64,000 bases of DNA from Candidatus Hodarchaeota archaeon (GCA_048886685.1 JBHLKM010000003.1:32001-96000); one strand, 5' to 3'. Shown: positions 2,636 through 45,352, numbered from the stretch's first letter. Notes: a model not told the origin generated them from the sequence alone. Numbers and translations are program-made.

Positions 2636-2737
2636 AGCCCCCGACGGGATTTGAACCCGCGACCTGCAGATTACAAGTCTGCTGCTATACCGCTTCGCCA
2701 AATAAAGCGTTCATCAATATTTTTAAGCTACGGAGGC
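2636..2737 (-). tRNA. tRNA-Thr(UGU) with a 30-nt non-canonical D-loop intron
   Basis: Minus strand: acceptor GCCTCCG/CGGGGGC, anticodon arm GCAGA-CTTGTAA-TCTGC, T arm GCGGG-TTCAAAT-CCCGT. Total 102 nt, 72 nt after intron removal. Confidence 0.92.
2694..2723 (-). other. tRNA intron at position 14/15 (relaxed BHB)
   Basis: Removal restores D-arm GCTTA-GCGGT-ATAGC with G15 matching C48. Inner helix AAATA/TATTT, bulge TA^A, central helix AGCT/GGCG, 3' site AA^G. Confidence 0.75.
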
Positions 2738-2892
2738 AACTTAAGATACCTAAATTTTTTCTATATTTTATATGAAATTGTTATAAATTTTTAATTTTGT
2801 GGTTTTGGGGCGTTTAAAAATCAACACAAATAGTTAAATGTTAACTTGAACTATTTTTCATAAATTATTAAATTATAATTTTGAGAGGAAAA

Positions 2893-3240
2893 ATGCCTTT
2901 TACAAAAGAAGATGTTGTTAGGTTGGCTTTTAAGATATACAAGAGAGGAGAACCCTTAGAAAAATCGATTTGGCGTCTTGCTGAATTATGTGTAACTATT
3001 AACAAAAATGTGAAAAATGGGTATGATATCCAGCCTTTAGAGACCGAAAATCTGGTTTTATTAATCAGAGATGACGTAAATGGTGAAATAATTCAACCTC
3101 CTGAAAGTGAGATCCGAGAAGTCGCTGAAGTGATTTTCAAAGAGGGTCCAAGTCGTTCTCAATTGGACTGGTATATTGCAGAAAAACAGCTTCTTTTAGA
3201 TGAAATTAAGAATATTATCGCTAAAAATAGAAAGGCTTAA
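2893..3240 (+). CDS. Hypothetical protein with two DUF2934-like repeats
   Basis: Internal duplication EDVVRLAFKIY...W.LAE and EIREVAEVIF...DWYIAE. ATG at 2893 is preceded by GAGG. Confidence 0.6.
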   Translation: MPFTKEDVVRLAFKIYKRGEPLEKSIWRLAELCVTINKNVKNGYDIQPLETENLVLLIRDDVNGEIIQPPESEIREVAEVIFKEGPSRSQLDWYIAEKQLLLDEIKNIIAKNRKA

Positions 3241-3403
3241 AGTAATCTCAAAGTAAATTATTTAAGCTTACTTTTTTTTATTGAATCTTGAGTTTGAAAG
3301 AAGTGTAAGAACTATTAAAATAGGAATAGTTGGTATTATAATAGATATTATACTAATTATTTATAGTTAACAATAAAATTATCATTTTTTATGGGATTAT
3401 AAA

Positions 3404-6361
3404 TTGTCGAGTTCAAGAAAAGGAAGAAAAAAGAAGGATGAGAATAAAGCTCAAACGTCCTTATTTTCTTTTGTTGATGAAAAAGAAAAAGAGAAGAAAG
3501 AACCAGAAAAAGAGCCGAAGAAAGAGAAACATATACCTTTAGAAGAAAAGAAACCAATTGAAAAAACTATAACTACTCAACAAGAAAAACCTGTAGATAT
3601 TTTGCCAGAAGAAAAACATGATATGACAAAAATTTCTCAACTTTCATATTTTAAAGGAAATGATGAGCCCTTTGGATTAAAAGAAGGTAATATAAAGTTA
3701 GAAAAAGTCCTTAGAGAAGGAGTAACCTCAAAATATATCCGTTATTTGATTGCAAAGGGAGAAATAGTCGAGAATTTAGAAAGAGGTTTATTGTTGGATG
3801 TTGATTACGATGGTGGTCAAAACAAAGCATTTTGTAAATTCTATGACTTAGAAACTGAGGATATAAAGATTTGGATTGATACCACCGAACATGAGCCTTA
3901 TTGTTTAAGTAAAGAACCAATCTCCGAATTAGAAAAATTATATTATTCAGAAAAAATAGGAGACACGGAGCAGAAAAAAAAAATAATCGATTATGCGGGA
4001 TTTAAGCGATTTGAGGAAATTACTCGATTTGATTTGTTAGCTGATAAAGAAATTAAAATTACAAAGCTATATGGTGAGACTCCTACAAATATTGGCGGTT
4101 CTGGAACGAATCTTCGTAATATCTTGGGCAAAAATGAAAAAAAGGCATGGGAAGCGGATATACGATATCATTTGAACTATATCTTTGATAGGCAACTGAT
4201 CCCTGGGTTAATTTATACAATTAAAAATGGAAATCTTGAAATATTAGATTTTGAGAAAATTAATGATAATTCCAGAAATATGGCTAATGAGCTTCGGACT
4301 CTATTTAAAGATGAGGCTCTTGAAATTCAAGAATTTTCTGAGAAATTTTTAGACATCTTTATTACGCCAATCCCCGATGTCAAGCGTGTGGCTATGGATA
4401 TAGAGGTTAAGATTGGTGAAAGAGACTATAAAATTCCTGATCCAACTTTAGCCAACCAAGAAGTAATAAGTGTGTCTTTTGTAGCTACTGATGGATTAAA
4501 AATAGTGTATATGCTTGAACGAGAAGATTATATTTTTGAAAAGCTTCATGAAGACTTTCCTCCAGATGCAAGAATTCTCCTCTTTAAATCTGAAAAAGAA
4601 TTAATAACAGAAACATTTCGACTTCTATGGAAATATCCCGTTGTTATTACTTTTAATGGTGACAATTTTGATTTAAACTATTTATCCCATCGAGCAGATA
4701 GATTGAAGATTGATAAAGATTTAAATCCTATTCATGTAAAGCGAGGTTTTGGAGTATTATCTAAAGCAGAATGTGATTTAAAAAGAGGTATCCACATTGA
4801 TCTTTTTGATTTATTCTTTAATCGAAGTATTTCAGGATATGCTTTTGGAGGTGTATATGAGAGTGCTTCACTTAATGCAATTAGTGCGGCTTTACTCGGA
4901 GAAGAAAAATATCAGCATGAAGAAATTATCCACGAAATGGAATATGATATTCTGTCGTGGTATAATCTTAAAGATTCCATATTAACGTTAGATCTTACTA
5001 AATTTAACAATTCTCTCGTTTGGAACCTGATAATATTGTTATGTCGAATAACAAAAATGCCTATCCATGATATGGTTCGAAGACAAATTTCCACTTGGAT
5101 ACAAAACATATTTTATTTCGAGCATCGTAGGAAAGGATCACTAATTCCCCGTAGATCTGAAATAGCAGAATTGAAAAAAGGAGGTATCTTATCGTCCAAA
5201 GCTGGTGACGACAAATTTATGGGTGCTTATGTCGTACCTCCCATCCCTGGAATTCACTATGATGTTGTTGTAATGGATTTTGCGTCACTTTATCCCTCTA
5301 TCATTAAGGAATATAATCTTTCATATGAAACTGTCCTATGTCCTCATAAGGATGATGAGGATAATCTTGTGAAAGGAACTCCTTATCATATATGTACACA
5401 TAAAATGGGTATCTTTGCGTATGTAGTTGGTTTTTTCCGTGATATTAGAGTAAAGTATTTTAAACCAAAATCAGGAGATAAAAATTTATCGGAAAAACAG
5501 CGTAGTTATTACCAAACTATTCAACAGGCGTTAAAGGTTTTTATTAATGGTAGTTATGGAGTATTTGGATCACAGAATTTTCCCTTGTTTTGTTTACCAG
5601 TAGCAGAAAGCACTACAGGCATAGGACAATATTCTATAAAGCAAACAATCAAAAAAGCTGAAGAATTGGGCGTAGAAGTTTTATACGGAGATACTGATTC
5701 AGTTTTTCTTAAAAACCCTACAATAGATCAAATGAAAGAAATATCAGATTGGAGTAAGAAAGAATTAGATTTAGATTTAGAAGAAGAAAAAACGTATCAA
5801 TTCTTAGCCCTCTCAGATAGAAAGAAAAATTATATAGGAATTTATAAAGATACGAAATATACAGATATAAAAGGATTAGTAGCTAAGAAGAAGAATACAC
5901 CAGAGTTTATAAAAAAAGTGTTTAATAACTTGATTGAAATCTTAAAAAACATTACGAATGATGATGAATTTTCGAAAGCACGCAATCAAATCATAGATAT
6001 AGTGAAAACCAACCTTAAAAAAATTGGAAAACCGGATACATTTACTTTAGATGATTATGCAATAAATATTGGATTACAGAAAAATTTGAAGAACTATATT
6101 AAAGTTGTTCCGCAACATGTTAGAGCCGCGATTGAACTAAAAGAAGCTACGGGAAAAGAATATCAAAAAGGTGAAACAATCAGTTTTATTAAGAGTAAAG
6201 GACCAATTGGAGCAAAAGCTATTGAACTAGCAAAACTCCAAGATATTGATACAAAAAAATACAAAGAACTTTTGACATCTGCTCTTGAACAGGTTTTTGA
6301 TGCTCTTGGCATAACTTTTGAGGAAATAAAGGGAATTAAAAAGATGGACGCATTTTTCTAA
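3404..6361 (+). CDS. polB: Family B DNA polymerase (PolB1-like)
   Basis: Exo motifs DIE, FNGDNFD, YNLKD. Polymerase motifs DFASLYPS, K...N..YG, YGDTDS. LLDVDYDG N-terminal motif of B1-type enzymes. Confidence 0.95.
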   Translation: MSSSRKGRKKKDENKAQTSLFSFVDEKEKEKKEPEKEPKKEKHIPLEEKKPIEKTITTQQEKPVDILPEEKHDMTKISQLSYFKGNDEPFGLKEGNIKLEKVLREGVTSKYIRYLIAKGEIVENLERGLLLDVDYDGGQNKAFCKFYDLETEDIKIWIDTTEHEPYCLSKEPISELEKLYYSEKIGDTEQKKKIIDYAGFKRFEEITRFDLLADKEIKITKLYGETPTNIGGSGTNLRNILGKNEKKAWEADIRYHLNYIFDRQLIPGLIYTIKNGNLEILDFEKINDNSRNMANELRTLFKDEALEIQEFSEKFLDIFITPIPDVKRVAMDIEVKIGERDYKIPDPTLANQEVISVSFVATDGLKIVYMLEREDYIFEKLHEDFPPDARILLFKSEKELITETFRLLWKYPVVITFNGDNFDLNYLSHRADRLKIDKDLNPIHVKRGFGVLSKAECDLKRGIHIDLFDLFFNRSISGYAFGGVYESASLNAISAALLGEEKYQHEEIIHEMEYDILSWYNLKDSILTLDLTKFNNSLVWNLIILLCRITKMPIHDMVRRQISTWIQNIFYFEHRRKGSLIPRRSEIAELKKGGILSSKAGDDKFMGAYVVPPIPGIHYDVVVMDFASLYPSIIKEYNLSYETVLCPHKDDEDNLVKGTPYHICTHKMGIFAYVVGFFRDIRVKYFKPKSGDKNLSEKQRSYYQTIQQALKVFINGSYGVFGSQNFPLFCLPVAESTTGIGQYSIKQTIKKAEELGVEVLYGDTDSVFLKNPTIDQMKEISDWSKKELDLDLEEEKTYQFLALSDRKKNYIGIYKDTKYTDIKGLVAKKKNTPEFIKKVFNNLIEILKNITNDDEFSKARNQIIDIVKTNLKKIGKPDTFTLDDYAINIGLQKNLKNYIKVVPQHVRAAIELKEATGKEYQKGETISFIKSKGPIGAKAIELAKLQDIDTKKYKELLTSALEQVFDALGITFEEIKGIKKMDAFF

Positions 6362-6401
6362 ATTTAATAGAAAAAAAAAAAGAAATTAGTTTTTGTTATA
6401 T

Positions 6402-6815
6402 CTACTTCTTACTAAATTCGGCTGGGTTTCCTCCAGCTTCAAGATATTCCGCATACTTTTTCAAGCTTTTTAAAAGCATTTCACCCGCGATTCCAAGTAC
6501 AGGTTCCTGACTTGCATCATCGAATTCTGCCCAAATTGTAGCTTCAACAGCATCCCCTTTTGGTTTTAAAACATATCCTAAACTTGTCATTGGACTACCC
6601 TCTTGAGTTGCTGATAGACTCTCAAGGGGATTTGTTTCTATACGAGTTGATGTTATGTCTCCAACATTTGTTTTAAAAAAATAGTTGCCTGGACCTAGTT
6701 CTGTGACTTCATTGACTACGATATTCCACCTAGCATAGTCGTTATCTTCGTCAATGATCTTAAAAATTCTCTCTTGAGAAGCGGAAATATCAAGTTTTCT
6801 TTCTACACGTGGCAT
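6402..6815 (-). CDS. SRPBCC / polyketide cyclase-like protein
   Basis: VERKLDISASQERIF..I...W N-terminus and C-terminal L..LK..AE helix. Confidence 0.7.
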   Translation of the reverse strand: MPRVERKLDISASQERIFKIIDEDNDYARWNIVVNEVTELGPGNYFFKTNVGDITSTRIETNPLESLSATQEGSPMTSLGYVLKPKGDAVEATIWAEFDDASQEPVLGIAGEMLLKSLKKYAEYLEAGGNPAEFSKK

Positions 6816-6917
6816 AAATTATACACTTTATGAATTTCAAAAAAATTTGTCAAAATTTCGATTAAATATCTTTAGAACGAGATACTTTATAAAACTTTAT
6901 GTTTTTAGGACACACCT

Positions 6918-8000
6918 TCACAAGATATAATACAACAAGCCCATAATCAAGGCACTAAAAACAGGATTTAAAATATTATCATCAACCTTAAGATTTGAGA
7001 CATCAATTATAAAGAATGTAATTGCCCCACTGAATGAAATTAAAAAAATCTCAAACATTTTTAACGAAGTTTCAAATAACCATAAAGAAATGAATGCTAT
7101 AAAAAATGAAACTAAAAATCCTGCAATATAACCAGCAATAGTCTTTTCAGATGACTTTGGAAAATGGATATTTCCAAATCGAAGTCCGAATACAGATGCT
7201 GCGCCATCTCCTAAAGTTGCTATTAGAGAAGCCGCTGCAAAAATACCAAATGGAAAAATAAAAATGGGTACAAATGATAAGGCAAGTACTACTGGTTTTA
7301 TATAATTATAATTTTCTTCACGCTTCATAGTCTTCCCTAATAGATCCAAGACATTATCAGGGATCAAATAGAAAAAGTTATGATTATCAAATATGAATGA
7401 TAATCTGATATAATCTAATGTACCGAAGATTAAGATACCTGAATAACCAGTAGTTAAAATCAAAAATCTACCAAATTGCTGTCCAGTAATTCTCCATACT
7501 TCATCAGCATTCCAGAGACCATCCCATATATAAATAGCAAAAATCCACAGAAAGATGATAATTCCAGCCGGAAATACGTGTAAAGCTTTTCGGTGGATAT
7601 CTGTCCTAATTTTGTGAGATTTTAGACTATTTAAATCATCTTCTTGTTTATCAAACCTAATTAAAAACTCCTTAAAATTTCTTTTTTCTTTAATATCTGG
7701 ATTATTCCTTAGAACTATTCGGTGTTGATAAAATAATATCAAGAAAATCAAAAAGGGGGTAAATATACAAATAAAAAATATAGATAAGATTTGAAATAAC
7801 CTAAAATATGAATTATCTATAGACAAATACAAGGGATATATCAGCCCTGAAATAATCCATAAAAAAAAGGTTAAAATACAGTTAAGAAAATTATGTTCAT
7901 TTGGAAATTTCTGATTCAGTTTAATGGCATAGTATAATAAGCCAAGTCCGCTAGATATAAAGAGAATAGTTACTGGCAATAATAAAATATCATATGCCAT
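6918..8000 (-). CDS. Membrane CTP-dependent isoprenoid/lipid kinase (dolichol/phytol/DAG kinase family)
   Basis: Multi-TM. RKALH, GDGAAS.FG..FG, KTIAG and DDN motifs. Confidence 0.75.
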   Translation of the reverse strand: MAYDILLLPVTILFISSGLGLLYYAIKLNQKFPNEHNFLNCILTFFLWIISGLIYPLYLSIDNSYFRLFQILSIFFICIFTPFLIFLILFYQHRIVLRNNPDIKEKRNFKEFLIRFDKQEDDLNSLKSHKIRTDIHRKALHVFPAGIIIFLWIFAIYIWDGLWNADEVWRITGQQFGRFLILTTGYSGILIFGTLDYIRLSFIFDNHNFFYLIPDNVLDLLGKTMKREENYNYIKPVVLALSFVPIFIFPFGIFAAASLIATLGDGAASVFGLRFGNIHFPKSSEKTIAGYIAGFLVSFFIAFISLWLFETSLKMFEIFLISFSGAITFFIIDVSNLKVDDNILNPVFSALIMGLLYYIL

Positions 8001-8082
8001 GATAACTTTAATTAAACCGTTATCTCAAAAATAACTTATGGAAAAATAGTTCTCTTAAATATATAAAAAAAATATATTAATT

Positions 8083-8997: not shown

Positions 8998-9084
8998 TAG
9001 TGATTTCCCTCTATTTTTTTAAATATAAAATTTAGTAAAATAAGTAGTTTTTATGATTAAAAAAATATATCTTAAAAAAATAGA

Positions 9085-9291
9085 TTAAATAATGAATTTG
9101 ATGATTAAAAAGAGTCCAACTACTATTAATATCACAGAGATAATTATAATAATCGACATCCCAGTTGGCTCAATTTGAGCAATCCATGCATCCCATTCGA
9201 TGATTGCGAGTGATAAAAGAATAGCACCAAAAGCTATCATGAATAAACCCACTCCAATCAGAAATAAACTTGATTTTGTAGAATCTTTCAT
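9085..9291 (-). CDS. Small two-TM membrane protein
   Basis: Two hydrophobic helices, ATG start. Confidence 0.6.
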   Translation of the reverse strand: MKDSTKSSLFLIGVGLFMIAFGAILLSLAIIEWDAWIAQIEPTGMSIIIIISVILIVVGLFLIIKFII

Positions 9292-28697: not shown

Positions 28698-30122
28698 TTA
28701 TTCAAATTTTGGTTTTTTATCTTGCCATGGAGCAATCTCTTCAAATGCTTTTGAAACTTGTAGTATTAACAATTCTTCAAATCTTTTGCCAATAATCTGC
28801 ATCCCAATCGGGAGATCTGTCTTCTTTGTCCTACCACAGGGAATGGTAGCGGCAGGGTGTCCAGTAAAATTGAATGGGAAAGTAAATGGTTGCCAACCTG
28901 TTGGGCCAACCCTTTTTCCATTTATTTCTGTCGGTACGGGAATTCCTAATTCAAAAGCTGGAATCGCTGTAGTTGGAGTGACAAGAATATCAAAATTTTT
29001 AAAAGTTTCAGATATCACTTGATAAAATTCTTCGCGAATTTGCATAGCATTGATGAAATTTTTAATCCGGAATCGCAATCCCGTCTGAGCCCAAAGAACT
29101 AATGTAGGATCCATTTTTTCTTTCCAATCCTTTAAATAAGGACCCAGACCGTACCCGTAATCTATGACCCAATGGGAACCAAAAGCTAACGATGGATCTA
29201 GCTCTTTAAATTTCGCTTCTTCGAGTTCCCACCCAAAAGAATCAAATTTTTGAACTGAATTAACAATAGCTTTTTCCACCTCGCTATCAACAACTTTAGC
29301 GTATCCTAAATCTAAGCTATAACCAATTTTTAATTTATTAGGTTTTTCGTTTATATGCTCAGAATACTTTATATTATCTTTTGGTAAAGAATATCTATCT
29401 CCCTCGAATGGTCCCTTCATGACATCTAACATCAGTGCGGCATCTGAAACATATCTTACAATAGGACCTATTACAGATAGAGTTTGGATAATATCGGATT
29501 TTTTTCTTGGATAAATAGGGACTCTCCCAAAGCTTGGCTTAATACCGTATGCTCCGCAGAAACCCGCAGGATGCCGAATCGATCCACCTCCATCAGAACC
29601 TTGGGCTAAGGGACCCATTCCACAAACTACTGAAACTGCTGCGCCTCCACTTGACCCTCCTGATGTTCTTTCGAGATTCCAGGGATTCTTAGTTGCTCCA
29701 AAAATAAAATTATCTGTAACCCCTTTAAATCCAAATTCTGGAGTATTAGTTTTTCCTAGGATAACACAGCCAGCATCTTTCAAACGCTTTACACAAATAC
29801 TATCCTCTTCAGGAATATAATTTTCAAATATTTTAGAACCAAATGTAGTTCTCACTCCTTTAAGAAGTACTAAATCTTTTATGGAAGTGGGAATCCCATT
29901 TAAAGCTGGTTGTTTTTCATTTTTCTTAACTTTCTCATCTGCTTTTTGAGCCATTTCCCTTGCCATTTCAAAAGTAGGAGTGCAATAAGCATTAACAATC
30001 GGATTGATTTTCTCAATCCTTTCAATAATAGCTTCAGTAATTTCTTGTGAGGTTATTTCTTGAGATTTTATCTTTTCCAGCATATCACAAGCAGACATAA
30101 AACAAATCTCTTCTTTATTCAA
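28698..30122 (-). CDS. Amidase signature family protein
   Basis: IKD, GKTNTPEFG, GGSSGG and GSDGGGSIR. Confidence 0.95.
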   Translation of the reverse strand: MNKEEICFMSACDMLEKIKSQEITSQEITEAIIERIEKINPIVNAYCTPTFEMAREMAQKADEKVKKNEKQPALNGIPTSIKDLVLLKGVRTTFGSKIFENYIPEEDSICVKRLKDAGCVILGKTNTPEFGFKGVTDNFIFGATKNPWNLERTSGGSSGGAAVSVVCGMGPLAQGSDGGGSIRHPAGFCGAYGIKPSFGRVPIYPRKKSDIIQTLSVIGPIVRYVSDAALMLDVMKGPFEGDRYSLPKDNIKYSEHINEKPNKLKIGYSLDLGYAKVVDSEVEKAIVNSVQKFDSFGWELEEAKFKELDPSLAFGSHWVIDYGYGLGPYLKDWKEKMDPTLVLWAQTGLRFRIKNFINAMQIREEFYQVISETFKNFDILVTPTTAIPAFELGIPVPTEINGKRVGPTGWQPFTFPFNFTGHPAATIPCGRTKKTDLPIGMQIIGKRFEELLILQVSKAFEEIAPWQDKKPKFE

Positions 30123-30165
30123 AATTTCATCCTCTCAAATTTGATGATAGTTCTTATATTTTTTA

Positions 30166-31629
30166 TTAATTAAATATCGGTCTTTTATTTTGCCAGGGCG
30201 CAATATCTTCGAACGCTTTAGAGACTTGTAGAACAGTAACCTCATCATATCTTTTTCCAATTATTTGCATTCCTATCGGTAAACCATCGCTAGACCATCC
30301 ACATGGAATGGTTGCTGCAGGATGACCGCTCATATTGAATGGAAATGTGAATGGGGTCCATTCACCAGGAATAATCTCTACACCGTCTATTTCTTCGGGA
30401 GATTGTTTATTAATATCAAAAGCGGGGCATGCTAAAGTTGGCGTTATTAATATATCATATTTTTTAAAATGTTTATTAATACTGTGATAAATCAATTCTC
30501 TTTGGAATTCAGTATCTTTTATAACCTCTGCAGAGTATTTAAATCCTTTTTTAATCGTCCTAGCTAAATCAGGGTCGATATCCTGTTCATGATCTTTAAT
30601 GAATTGTTTAAAGGCGTATGCAAAACCCGAGGTCCAAAATCGCCATAATGTTATATGTGGGTTTTCAACCTTAATTTGGCCTGAATAGTTTGTAGAAGAA
30701 GATAATAAGCTAATTTCTTTATTTTCCTCTACTAACCAATCAAAGTTTTCGAACTTTTTCACACTATTTAATATACTATCTTTTACTTCTGAGGCAAGGG
30801 CTTTCACAAACCCTAAATCGAATGAATATCCAATCTTAGGGTTATTAGGTTCTTCTTTTAGTTTTTCAAGATAACTGTAGCTTGGTTTTGGTAATGAATG
30901 CCTGTCAATATCATCACTTCCTACCATTGCATCTAACATTAATGCTGCATCTTTCACATATCGAACAATTGGTCCACTTTGTACAAGTGTGGCTAAGCTA
31001 CCTTCCGATTTCAATGCTTCTTGAGGTATTCTTCCATAATTAGGTTTTATTCCAAAAACACCACAAAAACCACTTGGAATTCTAATAGATCCCCCACCAT
31101 CAGACCCTTGTGCTAATGGACTTAATCCAGAAGCAACCGCGGCCGCCGCCCCTCCGCTGGATCCTCCAGAAGTTCTCTCAATATTCCAGGGATTTTTCGT
31201 AGCTCCAAAAATTAGATTGTCGGTAACTCCCTTATAACCGAAAGCAGGAGTGTTAGTTTTACCTAGTATGACAATTCCCGCGTTTTTTAACCTCTTAACT
31301 AATATCGCATCTTTTTTAGGGATATAATTTTTGAATACCTTGCAACCGTAGGTCGTACGAATGCCTTTAGTATCTTTCATATCTTTTATAGAAGTTGGTA
31401 TGCCATGTAATAATCCCAATTTTACCCCTTTTTTTACAGTTTCGTCAGCTTCCCCGGCGAGCGCTCTAGCCAACTCAAAGGTAGGAGTGCAATAGGCATT
31501 TATAATCGGATTTATTTTTTCAATCCTTTCAATTAAAGTTTCTGTGATTTCAAGAGATGGCAATTCTTGCGTTTTTATTTTTTCTCTCATATCGCAAGCA
31601 GACATGAAACAAATATCTTCTTTTCTCAT
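30166..31629 (-). CDS. Amidase signature family protein
   Basis: IKD, GGSSGG and GSDGGGSIRIP. Confidence 0.95.
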   Translation of the reverse strand: MRKEDICFMSACDMREKIKTQELPSLEITETLIERIEKINPIINAYCTPTFELARALAGEADETVKKGVKLGLLHGIPTSIKDMKDTKGIRTTYGCKVFKNYIPKKDAILVKRLKNAGIVILGKTNTPAFGYKGVTDNLIFGATKNPWNIERTSGGSSGGAAAAVASGLSPLAQGSDGGGSIRIPSGFCGVFGIKPNYGRIPQEALKSEGSLATLVQSGPIVRYVKDAALMLDAMVGSDDIDRHSLPKPSYSYLEKLKEEPNNPKIGYSFDLGFVKALASEVKDSILNSVKKFENFDWLVEENKEISLLSSSTNYSGQIKVENPHITLWRFWTSGFAYAFKQFIKDHEQDIDPDLARTIKKGFKYSAEVIKDTEFQRELIYHSINKHFKKYDILITPTLACPAFDINKQSPEEIDGVEIIPGEWTPFTFPFNMSGHPAATIPCGWSSDGLPIGMQIIGKRYDEVTVLQVSKAFEDIAPWQNKRPIFN

Positions 31630-31673
31630 TTTCTCACGAACAAATTTTAAATCTTAGTTTATAATAAGTATAA

Positions 31674-33137
31674 TTAATTAAGTTTAGGTTTTTTATCTTG
31701 CCATGGAGCAATCTCTTCAAATGCTTTTGAAACTTGTAATACTGTTATGTCATCAAGTCTTTTTCCAACAATTTGCATTCCTATAGGTAAACCATCACTC
31801 GACCAACCACATGGGATTGAAGCTGCTGGATGGCCACTCATATTGAATGGATGGGTATAAGGTGACCATGATCCTAAAGGTGCATCTTTCCCTTCAATTT
31901 TAGTAGGGGAAGATATACCTAATTCAAAGGCTGGACACGCTAAAGTTGGAGTTACTAATATATCGTATTCTTTAAAATGATTACAAATATTATCATAGAC
32001 AATTTCTCGTTGAATCTCTGCTAAGTTAATTGTTTCAGGAGAGAATGAATATCCAACTTCAGCCATTTCTACTAACTCGGGATCCATTATTTCTCTGTTT
32101 TTATTAATAGCTGATTTTAGAAAATATCCTAATCCGTATGTCCATAAAACCCACCAAGGCATACTGTAATTTAGTATTTTAACTTTTCCCCTAGCAAGTA
32201 ATTCTTTAGGCGATAATAAATTTATGTTGCTTTTTTCAACAGACCAATCGAATTCCTCAAATTTTTCTACGGCATTTAATACCGATTTTTCAACTTCAGA
32301 ATGGAGAACTTGTAAGTTACCTAAATCTAAAGTGTATCCTATTTTGAGTTGTTTAGGTTTTTCCTTTAGCATTTCATAAAAACTGTAAGTTGGTCTAGGT
32401 AAAGAGTATCGATCTATGTCATCTGCTCCTATTAAAGCGTCTAACATTAATGCGGCATCTTTTACATTCCGAGTTAGAGGACCTTTATTGACAAGTGTGC
32501 CAAGATTTCCTTCTATTTTCATGGAGGTGTGCGGAATCCGTCCAAAACTTGGTTTAATGCCATATAAACCACAAAAGCCACTTGGAATTCTTATAGATCC
32601 GCCGCCATCCGATCCCAAAGTCAAAGGGCCTAATCCTGCAGCTACTGCTGCCGCACCGCCTCCTGTTGAGCCTCCACAGGTCCTTTCTAAGTGCCATGGA
32701 TTTTTTGTTGCTCCAAAAATTAAGTTATCTGTCACCCCCTTGTATCCAAAAGCAGGCAGATTAGTTTTCCCTAGTATAACCACACCAGCTTCTTTTAATC
32801 TTTTGACTGAGATATCATCTTTTACTGAGATGTAATCTTCGAATACTTTGCATCCGCAAGTAGTTCTATATCCTTTAACATCAACATTATCTTTGATAGA
32901 GGTAGGTATACCATGTAATAATCCTAATTTTTCGCCTTTCCTTACTTTTTCATCTGCTTTTTTAGCCATTTCTCTTGCTAATTCGAATGTTGGAGTGCAG
33001 ATTGCATTAATGATTGGATTTACCTTTTCTATTCTCTCTATAATTATTTCAGTTATATCCACTGAAGTTAACTCTTGATTCTTAATTTTGTCCCTCATTT
33101 CCCATGCGGACATAAAACAAATATCATTTTCAACCAT
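31674..33137 (-). CDS. Amidase signature family protein
   Basis: IKD, GGSTGG (variant) and GSDGGGSIRIP. Confidence 0.95.
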   Translation of the reverse strand: MVENDICFMSAWEMRDKIKNQELTSVDITEIIIERIEKVNPIINAICTPTFELAREMAKKADEKVRKGEKLGLLHGIPTSIKDNVDVKGYRTTCGCKVFEDYISVKDDISVKRLKEAGVVILGKTNLPAFGYKGVTDNLIFGATKNPWHLERTCGGSTGGGAAAVAAGLGPLTLGSDGGGSIRIPSGFCGLYGIKPSFGRIPHTSMKIEGNLGTLVNKGPLTRNVKDAALMLDALIGADDIDRYSLPRPTYSFYEMLKEKPKQLKIGYTLDLGNLQVLHSEVEKSVLNAVEKFEEFDWSVEKSNINLLSPKELLARGKVKILNYSMPWWVLWTYGLGYFLKSAINKNREIMDPELVEMAEVGYSFSPETINLAEIQREIVYDNICNHFKEYDILVTPTLACPAFELGISSPTKIEGKDAPLGSWSPYTHPFNMSGHPAASIPCGWSSDGLPIGMQIVGKRLDDITVLQVSKAFEEIAPWQDKKPKLN

Positions 33138-33245
33138 TTTTTCAACCTTGAAATAAATTAGTTTTAAAAATTATACAGATCTTTAATTTATCTTTCTTTA
33201 AAAAGAACTTACTTATCTTTGAGAAGCTTTAAAAATTAAAAAAAA

Positions 33246-34703
33246 TTAGTTGAATTTTGGTTTTTTATCTTGCCAAGGAGCAACTTCTTCAAATGCTTTT
33301 GAAACTTGAAGAACAGTTAATTCATCGAATCTTTTTGCAACTATTTGCATACCAATAGGTAAACCATCACTCGACCAACCACATGGGATTGAGGCTGCTG
33401 GATGACCGCTCGCATTAAATGGATAAGTAAAAGGTAACCAACCTGTAGCTGTCATATTTTTGCCATCAATGATAACTCCTGTTTTCATAGTTTCTTCTTC
33501 GATTACTTCTGATTTACCGTGTTCAAAGGCGGGACACGCTAATGTTGGGGTTACTAAAATATCAAATTTTCTGAATACTTTACATATTTCTTCATAAATC
33601 ATTTCTCTCTGGATTTCTGCAATTTTTATTTCCTTTGTTGAAAATGTATAACCAATATTAATCATATCCACTAGACCAGGATCCATTTTAACTTTTCCCG
33701 TTTCAAAATAAGGTCCAAGAGAATAAGCGAATCCTGAGCACCAAATAGTTAAAAATGTAGATTCCGGATTCCTCAATCTTATTCTGCTTTTTTCAATCGA
33801 CCATCCGAATTCCTCAAATTTTTGAATCCCATTCAAAACAGATTTCTCAACCTCAGGATCAAGAGCTTCTGCAAATCCCAAGTCCAACGAGTATCCTATT
33901 TTTAATTTTGGTGGTTTCTCATCAAGCTTTTCTAAATAACTATAATTTGGCTTTGGAACTGAATATCTGTCAGAATCATCTTGACCAGCTATTATATCTA
34001 ATACTAAAGCAGCATCCTTTACATATCTCACAAGAGGACCTCGATGAACAAATGTACCAAGATAGCCCATTAATTTCATACCACTTTGGGGAACTCGACC
34101 AAAAGTAGATTTAAGACCATAAAGTCCACAAAAACAACTAGGTATCCTAATAGATCCTCCACCATCGGATCCTACACCGATAGGACCTAAACCCGAAGCG
34201 ACAGCACCTGCCGCTCCACCACTAGATCCTCCCGTAGTTCTTTCCAAATTCCATGGATTTTTTGTAACACCAAATATTAAATTATCTGTCTCACCCTTAT
34301 ATCCGAAAGCCGGAGTGTTGGTTTTACCCAAAATCACAATACCAGCATCTCTTAATCTTCTAACAAGAACCTCATCATTCCGAGGTACATTATTTTCAAA
34401 CAATTTACTACCAAAGGTAGTTCTAATTCCCTTTGTTTCAGTTTCATCCTTAATCGAAACTGGAACTCCATGTAATAATCCTAATTTTTCTCCTTTTTTA
34501 ATGGCTTCATCTGCTCTTTTTGCTGTTTCTCGAGCCAAGTCAAATGTAGGTGTACAATATGCGTTTATAATAGGATTAATCTTTTCTATCCTCTCAATAA
34601 TTATTTCAGTTATTTCTTCTGATGTGAGTTCTTGGTTCTTAATTTTATCTGCCATTTCACAAGCAGACATATAACAAATTTCTTCTTTTTTCATATCTAA
34701 CAT
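33246..34703 (-). CDS. Amidase signature family protein
   Basis: IKD, GGSSGG and GSDGGGSIRIP. Confidence 0.95.
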   Translation of the reverse strand: MLDMKKEEICYMSACEMADKIKNQELTSEEITEIIIERIEKINPIINAYCTPTFDLARETAKRADEAIKKGEKLGLLHGVPVSIKDETETKGIRTTFGSKLFENNVPRNDEVLVRRLRDAGIVILGKTNTPAFGYKGETDNLIFGVTKNPWNLERTTGGSSGGAAGAVASGLGPIGVGSDGGGSIRIPSCFCGLYGLKSTFGRVPQSGMKLMGYLGTFVHRGPLVRYVKDAALVLDIIAGQDDSDRYSVPKPNYSYLEKLDEKPPKLKIGYSLDLGFAEALDPEVEKSVLNGIQKFEEFGWSIEKSRIRLRNPESTFLTIWCSGFAYSLGPYFETGKVKMDPGLVDMINIGYTFSTKEIKIAEIQREMIYEEICKVFRKFDILVTPTLACPAFEHGKSEVIEEETMKTGVIIDGKNMTATGWLPFTYPFNASGHPAASIPCGWSSDGLPIGMQIVAKRFDELTVLQVSKAFEEVAPWQDKKPKFN

Positions 34704-38902: not shown

Positions 38903-39340
38903 ATGAAGATTGAAAAATTTTCTATGAACTCATATAATCATGTGTTAAAGTTATGGAAGAAAGCAGGGATTGGTGTTGGATCCTCAGACTCGAAAGAAGA
39001 GATTGAGAGAATGTTAAAGCGAAATCCCAATCTATTCTTAATTGGAAAATTAAAAGGAGAAATTATTGCTGCAGTAATGGGTGGATTTGATGGTAGAAGA
39101 GGGTATGTCCATCATCTTGCTGTAGATCCAATTCATCAAAAAAAGGGATATGGAAAAAAATTGATGGATTATCTAATTAGTCAATTTCGAAGAATTGGTG
39201 TACATAAGATTCATCTATTTATAGAAAAACAGAATCAAGCTGTTGTAGATTTTTATAGTAATTTGAACTGGGAAATTAGAGATGATTTGATTATGATGAG
39301 TTATATACCTGATAAAACTTTGTATAAGATGCGGATCTAA
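38903..39340 (+). CDS. GNAT acetyltransferase (YpeA-like)
   Basis: MGGFDGRRG..HHLAV.P..Q.KG.G and N.....FY motifs. Confidence 0.9.
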   Translation: MKIEKFSMNSYNHVLKLWKKAGIGVGSSDSKEEIERMLKRNPNLFLIGKLKGEIIAAVMGGFDGRRGYVHHLAVDPIHQKKGYGKKLMDYLISQFRRIGVHKIHLFIEKQNQAVVDFYSNLNWEIRDDLIMMSYIPDKTLYKMRI

Positions 39341-39452
39341 GTTAGATTCATATCTTTAAAACTCTGATTTAAAGTACGCTAATCTTAAAGCTTTAAATAT
39401 TATTGAAATGAATACTATTTACATAAATAACATATTTTCAATTTGAAAGAAA

Positions 39453-41237
39453 ATGCAAATGGAAGATATACAGTATTGGGATAAAAAATGGCCTGAAGTA
39501 GTTCCAAAAAGTATAGATTATGATGAAATACCATTAGGAGAACTTCTGAAAAGGGCAGTTTATAAATACCCTGATTCTGAGGTGATATTTTTTGAGGGTT
39601 TTAGGATGACTTATAAGGAATTGGATGTATTGGTTGATCAGTTCGCTACAGGACTTATAAAATTGGGAATAAAAAAGGGTGATGTTGTAGCTATTGACTT
39701 GCCCAATGTTCCCCAATATGTAATTGGTCATTGGGCTATTCTTAGAATCGGAGCTGTTTCTAATCCAATCCTTCCTGTTAATCGGTATGTGGAAATTATT
39801 CATCAGATTAATGATTCAAAGGCTAATGCTTTAATCATTCTAGATTATTTATTTGAAGAATATCTTCATGGTAAGGATCTTACAAAAATGCCTACTCTCA
39901 AAAATATAATCTTAACCGCTACTACAGAATATCTACCTAAAATTAAGGCTAAGTTGGGAGTAGCTCTCCGTAAGATTCCTAGAATGAAAAAATGGCCTGA
40001 TAAAATAGGGAATATTACATTCAATGGGTTTCAAGAGATATTACAAATAGGGCAACCGATTAATATCCCTAAAATAGATATTGATGTTAAAAAAGAACCA
40101 GCAATCCTAATATATACAGGCGGGACAACAGGTGTACCTAAAGGTGTCATGACTTCTCATTATAATATGATTACAAATACTCAACAAATTGTAACTTGGG
40201 CATCAACACAACTCCCGGAAATGGCAAAAGTACAAGGAAAAGGAGGAATGTTATTAGTTGTACCACTAGCTCATTCCTATGGTAATATAGGAATGACTGT
40301 TTCCATAAATGAAGGGTGGAAATTAATATTACTACCACGGCCTCCAGAAAAGATATCAAAGATTTTAAACATTATTATTAAAGAGAAAGCTACATATATG
40401 CCCGCAGTTCCCACTCTTTTTATAAAAATTAATCAAGATCCTGAGTCATCCAAATATAAGGATAAGCTCACTTCACTACATGCTTGTATTAGCGGAGCTT
40501 CAGCATTACCTTTAGAAGTCAAAAATACGTTTGAAGAGCTTACCAGTGCGGTAATTGTTGAAGGATATGGAATGTCAGAATGCTCACCCATTTTAACTAT
40601 AAATCCATTTATTAAATCTCTTCAAAAAATAGGAACAGTTGGCTTTCCTTTATCAGACACCTTAATAAAAATTGTTGATATTGAAGAAGGAACAAACTTA
40701 CTACCACAATGTCCTAACGATAATTGTGAAAGTTGTGGAGCAGATGAGCTACAATATATTGGAGAAATATGTGGAACAGGACCACAAGTTATGTTAGGGT
40801 ATCTAGGAAGAAAAGAAGATACAGAATATGCTCTAAGAAAAGATTCTCAAGGTCAGATTTGGTACTATACGGCGGATATTGGTTGTATCGATAATGAAGG
40901 ATACCTTCATATAAAGGATCGAAAGAGAGATATGATAAAAAGGAAAGGACATGCTGTTTTCCCAGCAGAAGTAGAAGATTTAATTTATATGCATGAAGCT
41001 GTGAATGAAGTTGGAGTAATTGGGGTACCCGATCCAGAAACGGGTCAAGAAATAAAAGCATATATTTCTTTAAAACCAGATTATCAAGGAAAAGTGACTA
41101 AAGAACAACTCATAGAATGGTGTCAAACAAATATAAGTCTATACAAATATCCAAGAATAATTGAAATCGTTCCTGAATTACCCAAATCCGTAATTGGTAA
41201 AGTTCTCAGGCGTGAATTACGAAGAGAAGGTGAATAA
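39453..41237 (+). CDS. Long-chain fatty acid-CoA ligase
   Basis: YTGGTTG.PKG, EGYGMSE, T.D.G, DRK.DMI and PKS..GK.LRR motifs. Confidence 0.93.
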   Translation: MQMEDIQYWDKKWPEVVPKSIDYDEIPLGELLKRAVYKYPDSEVIFFEGFRMTYKELDVLVDQFATGLIKLGIKKGDVVAIDLPNVPQYVIGHWAILRIGAVSNPILPVNRYVEIIHQINDSKANALIILDYLFEEYLHGKDLTKMPTLKNIILTATTEYLPKIKAKLGVALRKIPRMKKWPDKIGNITFNGFQEILQIGQPINIPKIDIDVKKEPAILIYTGGTTGVPKGVMTSHYNMITNTQQIVTWASTQLPEMAKVQGKGGMLLVVPLAHSYGNIGMTVSINEGWKLILLPRPPEKISKILNIIIKEKATYMPAVPTLFIKINQDPESSKYKDKLTSLHACISGASALPLEVKNTFEELTSAVIVEGYGMSECSPILTINPFIKSLQKIGTVGFPLSDTLIKIVDIEEGTNLLPQCPNDNCESCGADELQYIGEICGTGPQVMLGYLGRKEDTEYALRKDSQGQIWYYTADIGCIDNEGYLHIKDRKRDMIKRKGHAVFPAEVEDLIYMHEAVNEVGVIGVPDPETGQEIKAYISLKPDYQGKVTKEQLIEWCQTNISLYKYPRIIEIVPELPKSVIGKVLRRELRREGE

Positions 41238-41315
41238 AGTTTTTTTATATTATTTTTTTTATTCATTACTATTAATAGAACTTATGAAAAAATAGAAAGG
41301 AAATAAAATTTTAAA

Positions 41316-41960
41316 TTAAAATTTTTGTCCACATTTTTTGCAAACATTTATTTTTCCATACATAGGAGAATGCCCAATATAACCTAAGACTTTAGACTTG
41401 TCTTCTTCAGTTCTTATATCTTTTCCTACTGCACCACAGTTAGGGCAAATTAATCTATCTTCACTCACATATTCCGTTGGTGCTGCTGGTTTTAATTCAG
41501 TCAGTTCGGCTTCAAATTTATTTAAGCTAGCTTTTTGTTCTTCAATCATTTTTTCTTTTTCAGAAAGCGCTTTAGAGAGTTCTTCTATTTTAAAGTCTTT
41601 TTCAGAAAGTGAATTTGTAAGTTCATCTATTTTAGAGTCTTTTTCAGATATGGAATTATTTAAATCTTCTGTTTTTTTAGATAAATCTTCAACCTGTAAT
41701 TTTAGATCTCCCGATTCAGCACTTAAATTGTCTTTTGAAGAAGCCAATTCTTTAAATTGAGTTTCTAACTCTGTTATTTTATTTTTCCCTTGTTCAAGCT
41801 CAGAATTTAAATTAGAAACTGTTTCTTCTAACCTTTTAATTTCTCCATCTTTTTTTGTCAAAGTAGCTTTAAGGTCATAAACTTCAGCTTCATATTCATT
41901 GATTTTGTTTTGTAATCCTTTTACAATTTTATGATCCAATCCTTCTGTTAGATCTTTCAT
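41316..41960 (-). CDS. Coiled-coil protein with C-terminal Zn ribbon
   Basis: Long heptad region, then CPNCG...CKKCG. Confidence 0.8.
   Translation of the reverse strand: MKDLTEGLDHKIVKGLQNKINEYEAEVYDLKATLTKKDGEIKRLEETVSNLNSELEQGKNKITELETQFKELASSKDNLSAESGDLKLQVEDLSKKTEDLNNSISEKDSKIDELTNSLSEKDFKIEELSKALSEKEKMIEEQKASLNKFEAELTELKPAAPTEYVSEDRLICPNCGAVGKDIRTEEDKSKVLGYIGHSPMYGKINVCKKCGQKF
41538..41663 (-). repeat. 3 x 42-bp intragenic tandem repeat (14-aa unit)
   Basis: LNNSISEKDSKIDE / LTNSLSEKDFKIEE / LSKALSEKEKMIEE. Confidence 0.8.
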
Positions 41961-42182
41961 TTCATCTTGAGAAATAAAAATAACACCTCTATTTTCGTTT
42001 CCTTTTACTTAAGCCATTAATTCTATTATAATGAGAAAGTGAAATTTAAATAAATGAAATTTTAGCATTAACTAATTAAATCTTACAAGAATTTTATAAT
42101 AGAATTTATATTTAAGCTTTATTTTTAAGATTTTTTATGAGTAGGAAAAAAAATTTAATTTGAAAATTCTATAGAAAATTAT

Positions 42183-42335
42183 ACGCTTTATGAAGGTGAT
42201 GTCGAATCAGGCGTTGTCCTACTAGGTCAGAGCATTGGTGTAATCGAAAGTATTGAAAGTCTGTCGGAGATTATCGAAAAATGCATAAAAGACGCAGAAG
42301 TGGTATTAAAAAGAGCATCTAATTACATAATATAA
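42183..42335 (+). pseudogene. C-terminal remnant of nitronate monooxygenase / FabK-family gene
   Basis: Manual translation TLYEGDVESGVVLLGQSIGVIESIESLSEIIEKCIKDAEVVLKRASNYII*. In-frame stop upstream at 42156 and no start codon. Confidence 0.7.
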
Positions 42336-42419
42336 ACAAAACACAAATTTATTTACTACACCGATTTTAGTTTAGATTAATATTAAATTAGTTCTATTAA
42401 ATTTTAAGAAAAAGATCGT

Positions 42420-43919
42420 TCATTCTATAGAGATAATCGTATTTCTTTTAATAGCTGAGTAATATTGAACTATACATGTTTTTCCAACTATTTCCTGAGT
42501 CTCGAAAGTTTTAAGCAATTCTGGTTTTATAACGAATGCAATACTACGACGCCCATTATCAAGAGTACCTATTACAACTCCTCTATAAAATTCCCCCGTT
42601 CGCTTATAAATAATAGAATAGCCATCAATAATGATTTTACCGTTTGCTTTTTCAACAGGTTCGGGCAAGATTTTCTTTAAAATTGATTCTTGTATTTCAG
42701 AGTCGTCCCGAACACCCCATTGTATCATAGGTGGTGTTTTACCATAGATCCCAATTGATTGTTTAGTGTTGTATCCACCATTTGCTATAACCATCACTTT
42801 TAAGGAAGGGTTGGCACGAATTGATTCAACAGTATTGACAATTGCATGTAAAGAATAATTACTCAATGGGGTGCCAAAAAATGGGAGGCCTCCTGTAAGT
42901 GTTAAATCACGTGGATCATCTTCTTCAATTCCAAGTTCCTTCATAAAGATCTCTACAACAGAAGGAAAACAACTATATAAGTCAAATTTATCAATATCAC
43001 TTAACTCTAAACCCGCTTGTTCTAAAGAAAGACGAACTCCTTCTCTTGCTGCTGGAGAATCATCAAGTCGTGGACGTCGATAGAGATCATCCACATTTTT
43101 GAATGTTGCCCCTCCCATTATATAAATCTGTTTATTTTTATCAATTTCAAGTGATTCTGCAATTTCTTCACTTGTAATTAAAATTGTCCCTGCTTGATCT
43201 ACAAAATTATTCGCGCACATACGTTTAGTATAAGGGTGTACTATAAGACGATTCTGAGGTGATGGTGTAATAATTTCTTCAGCGCTAAATTGCTTTTGAG
43301 TCCAGCTATAAGGATTTTTTGATGCAACCTTAGAAAAACGTTCAAAGAGTTTTCCCATATATTTGTTATGTTCTTCGATGCTGCGTCCAGATGAAGCTCT
43401 TAATGCTGTTTCTAAAATTGCATAGCTAGTTGTTGCAAAATATAATTGATAGTGTATACTTTCTTTCCCCAATGGCCATCTCTCCCCAATAATGTACTCT
43501 GGATCTTCTTTTTTCGGCCAATAATCAGGAGCATTCCCTTTAAATGTTTTTCTTAAAGAATAGGCAGCTTCTCCTCCTGTGATAAGAACGCAACGGTGTT
43601 TCCCAGTTGCAATTGCTTTAGCGGCTTGATTAACTAACATCTGAGGGCTTTGTCCTCCATCGGGTAAATATACTTTTTCTTTAGGAGAAATATTAAGCCT
43701 TTTCCCAAGTTCACCAGGAGCGTCTTTATATGACCATGAACTAATATTAACCATATATATAGCATCTATGAAATCACTAATGTTTTTAGCTTGTGTATCT
43801 TCTATTGCCTTTTGTCCGGTCTTTACCATTAAACTAAGGGAATCAAGAGGTTTGAGCGTATTTCTGCGTTGCGTATATTGAGCAACACCAATTATAACTG
43901 GAGTATTTTTATTATTCAT
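42420..43919 (-). CDS. Thiolase-like protein (TLP1-type acetyl-CoA acetyltransferase family)
   Basis: PVIIGV.Q, GGQSPQ, GGEA, PYTK.M, DLYSCFP and LTGGLPFFG motifs. Confidence 0.85.
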   Translation of the reverse strand: MNNKNTPVIIGVAQYTQRRNTLKPLDSLSLMVKTGQKAIEDTQAKNISDFIDAIYMVNISSWSYKDAPGELGKRLNISPKEKVYLPDGGQSPQMLVNQAAKAIATGKHRCVLITGGEAAYSLRKTFKGNAPDYWPKKEDPEYIIGERWPLGKESIHYQLYFATTSYAILETALRASSGRSIEEHNKYMGKLFERFSKVASKNPYSWTQKQFSAEEIITPSPQNRLIVHPYTKRMCANNFVDQAGTILITSEEIAESLEIDKNKQIYIMGGATFKNVDDLYRRPRLDDSPAAREGVRLSLEQAGLELSDIDKFDLYSCFPSVVEIFMKELGIEEDDPRDLTLTGGLPFFGTPLSNYSLHAIVNTVESIRANPSLKVMVIANGGYNTKQSIGIYGKTPPMIQWGVRDDSEIQESILKKILPEPVEKANGKIIIDGYSIIYKRTGEFYRGVVIGTLDNGRRSIAFVIKPELLKTFETQEIVGKTCIVQYYSAIKRNTIISIE

Positions 43920-44045
43920 AATAAAAACTGTTATATCTTATGTTTTGTAAAATTTCTAATTCATTTAAAAATTAATTAATTTTAATTATTCATATAGAAA
44001 AACTCAAAAATGTAAAACTAATAATCATAAGAAGGTGAAATTTGA

Positions 44046-45352
44046 TTGAAGAAAGTAGCAATAATAGGTATAGGCATTACACCTTTTCGAGCACGATATC
44101 TAGATAAAACATATTTCGAACTAGCATATGATGCTACAAGCCTAGCTCTCGAAGATGCCAATAAAAATGGTGCGGATATTACTCATAAGGATTTGCAGTC
44201 AACTGTCTACGGGATTTATAACGAACTATTTGAACGTCAATTCATGCCTGATATTTTTGTTAATAGCTATCTTGGCATGAATAATAAACCAGGAACACGT
44301 ATCGCTTCAGGAGGTGCAACTGGGGGATATACGGTTAGAATGGCTTATGCAGAAGTAGCTTCAGGACTTTCAGATTTATGTTTATGCATCGGAGTTGAGA
44401 AGTGTAATGATTGCTATGATGAACAAACTGGAGTGACTACTCCTGAAGTACTTAACGCCATTGCTTATAGTGCGGATATGACGTATATTATATAGTAACA
44501 TAATTACTATATGAGCGGAAGAATATCCGATGGGAAAATATTGTTTGGATGTCCCAACTATCCCCATTGATGGCAGCTTCATCATATGTTTCAATGGTTA
44601 ATGCTCACTTTGAGGAATTTGGAAATCCAACAGAAGAACAGATGGCATTAGTTTCAGTAAAAAATCATGGTAATGCAATTAATAATCCTAAAGCTCAATC
44701 GCCAATGAAAATTACAGTAGAAGATGTTATGAATTCAAGAATTATTTGTTATCCTTTTAAATTATTAGATTGCTGTCTTTATTCTGAGGCCTCTGCCGCC
44801 TTAATACTAGCCAATGAAGAAAAAGTTAAGGAATTAAAGATAGAAAAACCGATTTGGATTTCTGGAGTAGGTGCCGCTAATACAGACTGTTTTATAGGGA
44901 ATAGAGAAGATATGGGAAGGTTGTATTCAAATATTTATGCAGCAAAAGCAGCCTATAAAATGGCACAATTAGACTATGACAAAATCAAAAGTCAAATTGA
45001 TTTAGCAGAATTGCATGATGCTTTCTCTGGACAAGAGGTTATCTCCTACGAGGAATTAGGATTTGTAAAATTCGGAGAAGGCGGTAGTTGGATTGAATCA
45101 GGAGGACCACTAATGGATGGTGAATTACCATGTTGCCCTTCAGGAGGGCTTATTGGGTGTGGTCATGCTGTAGGGGCTACGGGGATTATGTCCACAGGAG
45201 AGGCAGCACTTCAATTGAGAGAAGATGCTGGAAAGCATCAAGTGAAGACAATTAAAAATGGAAGAGCTATTTCTCATTCAATTGGGGGTCCTGGTGCAGC
45301 TTATGCTGCGGTTATTGTGATGGAAAATGAGGAGGGGATTAGTAAAAAATGA
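44046..45352 (+). CDS. Thiolase-domain protein (SCP-x/aldolase type), interrupted by two putative BHB introns; exons 44046-44486, 44521-44536, 44568-45352 (413 aa)
   Basis: Track ORFs 44046-44495 and 44549-45352 are the N- and C-halves of one thiolase (GVEK; KNH.NA..NP.A; ELHDAF; GH.VGATG). Removing 34 + 31 nt joins them via EYPMG. Confidence 0.85.
44487..44520 (+). other. Putative mRNA intron 1 (34 nt, relaxed BHB)
   Basis: 11-bp inner stem TTATATAGTAA/TTACTATATGA, bulge AT^A, central helix ACGT/GCGG, bulge AA^G, outer helix CGGATAT/ATATCCG. Contains the in-frame TAG. Confidence 0.8.
44537..44567 (+). other. Putative mRNA intron 2 (31 nt, relaxed BHB)
   Basis: Central helix TGGG/CCCC, bulge AA^A, inner stem ATA..GTT.GG/CC.AAC.TAT, 3' site AT^T. 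Removal gives GGA ATG ATG in frame. Confidence 0.7.

What the first reader, a model, noticed from the sequence alone, without database searches (positions are those of the whole stretch)
2636..44567. tRNA intron and both mRNA inserts share the same relaxed BHB geometry
Seen: the three elements are 30, 34 and 31 nt, all start with A, and all have a proper 3-nt 5' bulge and inner stem. Each has a 4-position central helix with three pairs plus a mismatch at the exon-side end (A.G in AGCT/GGCG, A.G in ACGT/GCGG, U.C in TGGG/CCCC). The tRNA intron ends GGCGAA^G and mRNA intron 1 ends GCGGAA^G. Inference: one broad-specificity endonuclease processes all three, and the tRNA is an internal control showing this deviant motif should be spliceable here. 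It also suggests short introns spread between tRNA and mRNA targets.
Basis: partly seen in the sequence, partly recalled or inferred. Interest (0 to 1): 0.8.

Follow-up and report, generated by a model that had tools for sequence, protein, structure and literature searches.

The report
tRNA-type introns in Asgard thiolase gene
In a Loki-type Asgard archaeon, one tRNA gene and one lipid-metabolism gene carry ~30-base inserts shaped for the tRNA-splicing enzyme, so this relative of eukaryotes very probably splices messenger RNAs too; the inserts share a loose shape but show no sign of having been copied between tRNA and mRNA.

Summary
The genome's only tRNA-Thr(UGU) has a 30-nt D-loop intron. 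A thiolase-fold gene has 34- and 31-nt inserts around a 16-nt micro-exon; removing them restores the intronless ortholog protein exactly. All three have three central pairs plus an exon-side mismatch. The genome encodes an (alpha-beta)2 EndA with the specificity-relaxing loop lysine, and RtcB.

The shared mismatch is a tolerated position, not a signature. It occurs in 6 of 14 coding-region introns but only 2 of 30 tRNA introns (p=0.008), and orthologs pair it. Outer helices also differ. Copying between tRNA and mRNA is not supported: no pair exceeds 65% interior identity, and the slight excess similarity is not significant under hairpin-preserving shuffles.

The larger result is at least 14 coding-region inserts in this genome (uL11, dnaG, uvrB, cdhA) and eight insert sites in this one gene across relatives, with covarying stems and non-monophyletic carriers. 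No RNA was available, so splicing is inferred. In the papers searched, coding-region introns of this kind are documented only for cbf5. This scan has already noted the phenomenon in at least 28 genomes.

The parts
2636..2737 (-). pre-tRNA-Thr(UGU), the only copy found in the genome
   Evidence: RF00005 41.6 bits; ortholog comparison; genome tRNA census
2694..2723 (-). 30-nt D-loop intron (14/15): 3-of-4 central helix, 5-bp inner stem, no exon-exon helix
   Evidence: the same intron is present in 5 related genomes, and intronless alleles occur in others
44046..44486 (+). exon 1 of a Cys-less thiolase-fold gene (147 codons)
   Evidence: PF00108 and NF004720 N-terminal part
44473..44529 (+). splice motif of insert 1: exon-exon helix 44473-79/44523-29, central helix 44481-84/44515-18, 11-bp inner stem
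44487..44520 (+). mRNA intron 1, 34 nt, phase 0, with in-frame stops and a frameshift
   Evidence: same-site 28-31-nt introns in L026, L032, L056; 3 compensatory pair changes
44521..44536 (+). 16-nt micro-exon (E-Y-P-M-G plus one base). It supplies the outer helix of intron 1 and the central helix of intron 2
44537..44567 (+). mRNA intron 2, 31 nt, phase 1; central helix 44531-34/44562-65, weak inner stem
   Evidence: same-site introns in L026 (4 of 4 pairs) and L056
44568..45352 (+). exon 3 of the thiolase-fold gene; the spliced protein is 413 aa
   Evidence: PF22691, PF02803; 250 identical, 137 synonymous and 24 changed codons against the nearest intronless ortholog
45349..46217 (+). downstream operon genes: DUF35/ChsH2-like (overlapping the thiolase stop codon) and SCP2
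   Evidence: PF01796, PF12172, PF02036

Best explanation
All three inserts are bulge-helix-bulge-type introns removed by the genome's single (alpha-beta)2 splicing endonuclease and religated by RtcB.

Shown in sequence: removal restores the ortholog RNA or protein; the junctions can form a helix with 3-nt bulges; the enzyme has the catalytic triad and the loop lysine. Inferred: EndA cuts after the second base of each bulge in both the pre-tRNA and the thiolase pre-mRNA, and the 16-nt micro-exon lets both motifs form at once, giving a 413-aa protein.

The exon-proximal helix pair is a tolerated position. It is broken more often in mRNA introns, probably because coding constraint fixes the exon side and the enzyme does not need that pair. 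The three introns share an enzyme, not a demonstrable ancestry.
For: Exact restoration of the ortholog peptide, present in 63 intronless alleles. Inserts of 28-34 nt at 8 sites of this gene in 16 other loci. Intron-1 stem 97% paired across 4 carriers with 3 two-sided changes; slid controls 25-54%. The three synonymous third positions that build the helices are G in 4 of 4 carriers and all-G in 0 of 63 non-carriers. Exons show purifying selection (137 synonymous against 24 amino-acid-changed codons). At least 14 coding inserts in the genome, 11 verified by homology, including uL11 and dnaG. EndA alpha and beta subunits and RtcB are present. Precedent: cbf5 (PMC2738675); the L1 loop in Asgard EndA (PMC5829648).
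Against: No RNA or enzyme data were obtained. The helix of insert 2 competes with more stable folds, and its shuffle probability is only 0.01-0.03. The region folds only modestly better than shuffles (z -1.84). [quoted passage not shown] The covariation test has only 4 sequences. Several tRNA registers were chosen by best motif score, which inflates their 4-of-4 count, and 5 unresolved tRNA introns were left out.
Confidence: 0.86

Rival explanations
1. Intron sequences were copied between tRNA genes and protein-coding genes. This concerns origin and is compatible with splicing.
For: Non-canonical tRNA introns (median 30 nt) and coding introns (median 30.5 nt) fall in one size class, unlike anticodon-loop introns (median 22 nt). 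There is a small excess of similarity under mono- and dinucleotide shuffles (P 0.005-0.04).
Against: The excess is not significant under hairpin-preserving shuffles (P 0.18 for this genome, 0.08 with relatives). The best pair is 65%, mRNA-mRNA pairs score the same (0.458 against 0.46), and true same-site homologs average 0.75. The three introns of the finding are no more alike than shuffles (P 0.33-0.82). The bioRxiv census also finds almost no cross-tRNA intron families in Asgard.
Confidence: 0.12
2. No splicing: the gene is expressed as two polypeptides, with the C-terminal part restarting at the ATG near 44549 or 44570.
For: Both halves are open reading frames with start codons, and the genome has about ten thiolase paralogs.
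Against: The micro-exon peptide would be lost, yet it is unchanged in all carriers. Sister inserts sit at 8 unrelated positions. Inserts in uL11, dnaG, cdhA and purA cut conserved motifs near the N-terminus or within them. Stem covariation would have no explanation.
Confidence: 0.06
3. A dead gene or an assembly error: the inserts are inactivating or artefactual.
For: The genome is an assembly with 8.4% contamination, and paralogs exist.
Against: There is no other lesion in 413 codons and a strong synonymous bias. Homologous inserts occur at the same base in independent assemblies. The inserts are not duplications of the flanking sequence.
Confidence: 0.04
4. Programmed ribosomal bypassing (phage T4 gene 60 or yeast mitochondrial byps; own knowledge) skips the inserts during translation.
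For: Size, a hairpin and an early stop codon in insert 1 resemble bypass elements.
Against: There are no matched take-off and landing codons (Tyr codon before insert 1, Glu codon at its end). Insert 2 splits a codon (phase 1). The motif recurs in tRNAs, which are not translated.
Confidence: 0.02

Closest known systems
cbf5 pre-mRNA intron of Crenarchaeota (Watanabe 2002; Yokobori 2009, PMC2738675)
   Same: Short intron inside a coding sequence with an unconventional BHB, cut by a hetero-oligomeric EndA, with patchy gain and loss.
   Different: cbf5 has one intron at one site of one gene. Here there are two introns flanking a 16-nt micro-exon, 8 sites in one gene family and at least 14 inserts in one Asgard genome. 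Splicing here is not shown experimentally.
Non-canonical (HBh'/relaxed) archaeal tRNA introns, including Asgard D-arm introns (PMC6379350; bioRxiv 10.64898/2026.10.13.758758)
   Same: The tRNA-Thr intron is an ordinary member: D-loop position, ~30 nt, 3-of-4 helix, missed by standard annotators.
   Different: Nothing substantial. The main text of that preprint has no occurrence of 'mRNA'.
(alpha-beta)2 EndA with CSL/L1 loop (A. pernix 3p1z; PMC5829648 reports L1 across TACK and Asgard)
   Same: Two subunits, catalytic triad on alpha, loop lysine conserved.
   Different: The substrate range of the Asgard enzyme has not been measured.
Haloferax HVO_1309 5'-UTR BHB intron (PMC7714728)
   Same: An mRNA substrate of the tRNA splicing endonuclease.
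   Different: It lies in the UTR and does not break a reading frame.
Thermoproteales tRNA intron transposition (as summarised in the bioRxiv census)
   Different: It predicts families of 80% identity or more across targets; none was found here (best 65%).

Membership tests
EndA-type (BHB/relaxed BHB) intron | Removal restores the host RNA or protein of intronless orthologs | tested here: met
EndA-type (BHB/relaxed BHB) intron | Both junctions fall 2 nt after the strands of a central exon-intron helix, with an inner intron stem | tested here: met
   (3 of 4 pairs; chance 0.003-0.011)
EndA-type (BHB/relaxed BHB) intron | Structure conserved while sequence changes | tested here: met
   (3 compensatory changes, only 4 sequences)
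EndA-type (BHB/relaxed BHB) intron | Cleavage by EndA and a ligated product in the cell | not testable with these tools
   no RNA run was listed
Strict canonical hBHBh' motif | Four central pairs plus both outer helices in register | tested here: not met
   3 of 4 pairs in all three; no outer helix in two, and an offset one in insert 1
Broad-specificity (alpha-beta)2 EndA | Catalytic subunit with Tyr-His-Lys triad plus a second, non-catalytic subunit | tested here: met
Broad-specificity (alpha-beta)2 EndA | CSL/L1 loop with conserved Lys (A. pernix K44) | tested here: met
   K56 aligns to K44 of 3p1z_B (PMC6379350)
Broad-specificity (alpha-beta)2 EndA | Measured cleavage of relaxed substrates | not testable with these tools
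   needs an in vitro assay
Transposed intron family (Thermoproteales-like or introner-like) | Near-identical intron sequence at unrelated targets | tested here: not met
   the only genomic copy found is part of a duplicated PFK fragment
Ribosomal bypass element | Matched take-off and landing codons at codon boundaries | tested here: not met
Group I or II self-splicing intron | Catalytic RNA core of hundreds of bases | tested here: not met
   30-34 nt; no Rfam match other than the tRNA

The most novel reading that the evidence does not exclude
Lokiarchaeia routinely splice mRNAs with the tRNA machinery: tens of ~30-nt introns per genome, including essential genes and a two-intron micro-exon. 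These introns turn over quickly and move sideways between alleles of the same gene together with a short patch of flanking exon. Carriers of thiolase intron 1 are rejected as a clade (AU p=5e-5) yet share homologous introns and some flanking codons not needed for pairing.
Probability: 0.35. Interest if true: 0.85.

Novelty: new variant of a known kind. Interest (0 to 1): 0.62.

Why it matters
If the splicing is real, protein-coding genes of the closest prokaryotic relatives of eukaryotes carry many non-spliceosomal introns. In the papers I could search this is documented for one coding sequence (cbf5). It would mean that Asgard gene sets are mis-annotated as split or pseudogenes, and that endonuclease-ligase mRNA splicing operates genome-wide in this lineage; in eukaryotes the XBP1 route also ends in RtcB ligation.

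The tRNA-Thr intron gives a ready positive control for a three-substrate assay with recombinant EndA. One gene with eight polymorphic intron sites is a tractable system for the open question of how such introns arrive. The specific claim of a shared mismatch is a modest addition, and the claim of tRNA-mRNA spread is unsupported.

Tried and rejected
RNA evidence: no RNA holder was listed for window 40000-49900, so no reads were laid. This is not evidence either way.

A stricter version lost most known introns. Homology was needed.

The apparent second copy of the PFK intron at C5:244202 looked like transposition but is a 232-bp, 95%-identical duplicate of the gene fragment with both exons.

Candidates C21:13639 (antisense of an intact gene) and C11:152593 (ordinary coding sequence in another frame) were rejected.

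The excess tRNA-mRNA similarity under simple shuffles was attributed to shared hairpin shape after a pair-preserving null.

A flank co-conversion test at sites 126, 127 and 180 gave no clear excess. ARAGORN misses or misnames many intron-bearing tRNAs. Five tRNA introns (Met/Ile C5, Gln x2, Asn, Trp anticodon) and the Leu D-loop intron had ambiguous registers and were excluded.

The spliced-alignment script timed out before the last loci; completed them. Seven literature searches found no paper on Asgard coding-region BHB introns; the library is incomplete.

Full report
Source. The window is C3:32001-96000 of a 4.4-Mb, 31% G+C assembly. Its thiolase is 85-95% identical to those of Promethearchaeota (Lokiarchaeia) MAGs.

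The tRNA-Thr(UGU) gene at 2737-2636 (minus strand; Rfam) has a 30-nt insert after nucleotide 14. Five relatives lack it and show the spliced 5' half; five carry it. The thiolase-fold gene 44046-45352 is split into three frames. Orthologs read YEYPMGMM there, and only removal of 44487-44520 and 44537-44567 restores that, leaving a 16-nt micro-exon. Each junction pair sits two bases past a central helix with three pairs and a mismatch at the exon-side end, followed by an inner stem of 5, 11 or 3 bp. With the exons fixed and the intron shuffled, three helix pairs plus three stem pairs occur in 0.3-1.1% of trials.

Are the coding inserts introns? Among about 90 related loci, 16 carry 28-34-nt inserts in this gene, at eight sites in all (near codons 126, 127, 148, 149, 153, 180, 308, 309). 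Most have stops or frameshifts, and all fit the motif. Intron 1 recurs at the same base in L026, L032 and L056 with lengths of 31, 29 and 28 nt; its stem is 97% paired with three two-sided changes. The three synonymous positions that build its helices are all G in 4 of 4 carriers and in 0 of 63 intronless alleles. The exons differ from the nearest intronless ortholog by 137 synonymous and 24 amino-acid-changed codons, with no other lesion. These points argue against a pseudogene, an artefact and a split protein. Insert 2 is the weakest: computed folds prefer other registers, although its ortholog in L026 has a full 4-pair helix.

Machinery. Two EndA genes exist. The C18 protein has Tyr139, His147 and Lys178 and the loop whose Lys56 aligns with A. 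pernix Lys44, the residue responsible for relaxed-motif cleavage (PMC6379350). The C5 protein lacks the His. RtcB is intact. That Asgard EndA is (alpha-beta)2 with this loop is already published (PMC5829648).

Is the geometry a shared signature? I built two sets for the genome. Coding introns came from motif-free comparison with 2.4 Mb of sampled relatives, the fetched loci and paralogs: 11 verified by homology (thiolase x2, uL11, a thioredoxin-like gene, PFK, uvrB, an acyl-CoA-ligase-like gene on C40, gamma-carbonic anhydrase, cdhA, a small C4 gene, dnaG) and 3 by restored motifs (second PFK intron, purA, a Cys-motif gene on C6). The gene names rest on recognised motifs and earlier scan notes rather than on family scans. 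Thirty tRNA introns were curated. Mismatches by helix position, intron side to exon side, are 2,0,0,6 of 14 for mRNA and 2,3,1,2 of 30 for tRNA (Fisher p=0.008; p=0.02 without the three elements of the finding). Twenty-two tRNA introns have four pairs, though register choice favours that count. The only other tRNA intron with this pattern is the D-loop intron of tRNA-Phe. Eight further sites in relatives have no mismatch there but four wobble pairs. The tRNA-Thr orthologs show A/G, A/A, G/A and A-U at that position. The position is therefore tolerant, and a mismatch there is typical of coding introns rather than of a tRNA-mRNA family. Outer helices differ among the three as well. A recent census warns that the relaxed class is very permissive (bioRxiv 10.64898/2026.10.13.758758), which matches my 671 descriptor hits.

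Spread between tRNA and mRNA? The three introns are no more alike than shuffles (P 0.33-0.82). Across sets the best interior identity is 61% within the genome and 65% with relatives. The small mean excess is not significant once hairpin pairing is preserved (P 0.18 and 0.08), whereas same-site homologs average 0.75 against 0.40 between sites. A common size class (about 30 nt for non-canonical tRNA and coding introns, 22 nt for anticodon-loop introns) leaves room for a common generating process, but not for recent copying.

An unexpected pattern. Carriers of intron 1 are scattered on the gene tree and the nearest relatives of this allele are intronless. A single clade is rejected with the junction region removed (AU p=5e-5), and likewise for site 180 (p=7e-5). 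Carriers share an AGY serine codon (3 of 4, against 3 of 53) and an alanine codon where most of the local clade has serine. This fits sideways transfer of an intron-plus-flank patch between alleles. An old gain with many losses is not excluded, and other sites show no flank excess.

Comparison with what is known. The tRNA intron is an ordinary Asgard D-loop intron. The coding inserts work like the cbf5 intron (PMC2738675) and meet every sequence-testable feature of relaxed EndA introns; they fail the strict BHB definition. Besides cbf5, the literature searched reports only a 5'-UTR case in Haloferax (PMC7714728). The scan itself has noted such Asgard mRNA introns in at least 28 genomes, one with claimed spliced reads for dnaG that I could not test.

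Verdict. These are real introns, very probably spliced by one enzyme (0.86). The shared mismatch is a tolerated site, and tRNA-mRNA copying is unsupported (0.12). New variant of a known kind; interest 0.62.

Noticed in passing
G000 C5:~244014-244245 (+): A 232-bp, 95%-identical duplicate of part of the PFK gene that includes its 30-nt intron (28 of 30 identical) and both flanks, then breaks off.
   Followed up: yes
G000 C1:17820-17981 (-) and C1:218424-218598 (+): tRNA-Phe(GAA) with three introns (30, 28, 28 nt), and a tRNA read as Ile(UAU) with three introns (25, 45, 30 nt). ARAGORN misnames both.
   Followed up: partly
G000 C1:221073-221165 (-): Selenocysteine tRNA called by ARAGORN.
   Followed up: no
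window 44046-46217: The thiolase-fold protein has Gly where the nucleophilic Cys usually lies and is coupled to DUF35 and SCP2 genes, an Ltp2/ChsH2-like arrangement (own knowledge; also noted by earlier readers).
   Followed up: partly
window 52786-55189 and 58773-61229 (-): Four more thiolase-like genes (28-35% identical to the spliced protein), with no inserts seen.
   Followed up: partly
window 28698-34703 (-): Four tandem genes of 474-487 aa; the two scanned are amidases (PF01425).
   Followed up: partly
L239 (G014 tRNA-Thr): The same D-loop intron plus a second insert in the T-loop. The D-loop intron occurs on two different anticodon-stem alleles (L234-236 against L238-239).
   Followed up: no
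G005 sample (L113-L192): Only about 2 distinct coding inserts in 316,000 compared codons of this relative, against about 10 in 475,000 for the window's genome, so the intron load may differ between genomes of one genus.
   Followed up: partly
window 3404-6361 (+): An intact family B DNA polymerase gene near the tRNA-Thr; it has a few in-frame insertions relative to relatives, none breaking the frame.
   Followed up: no
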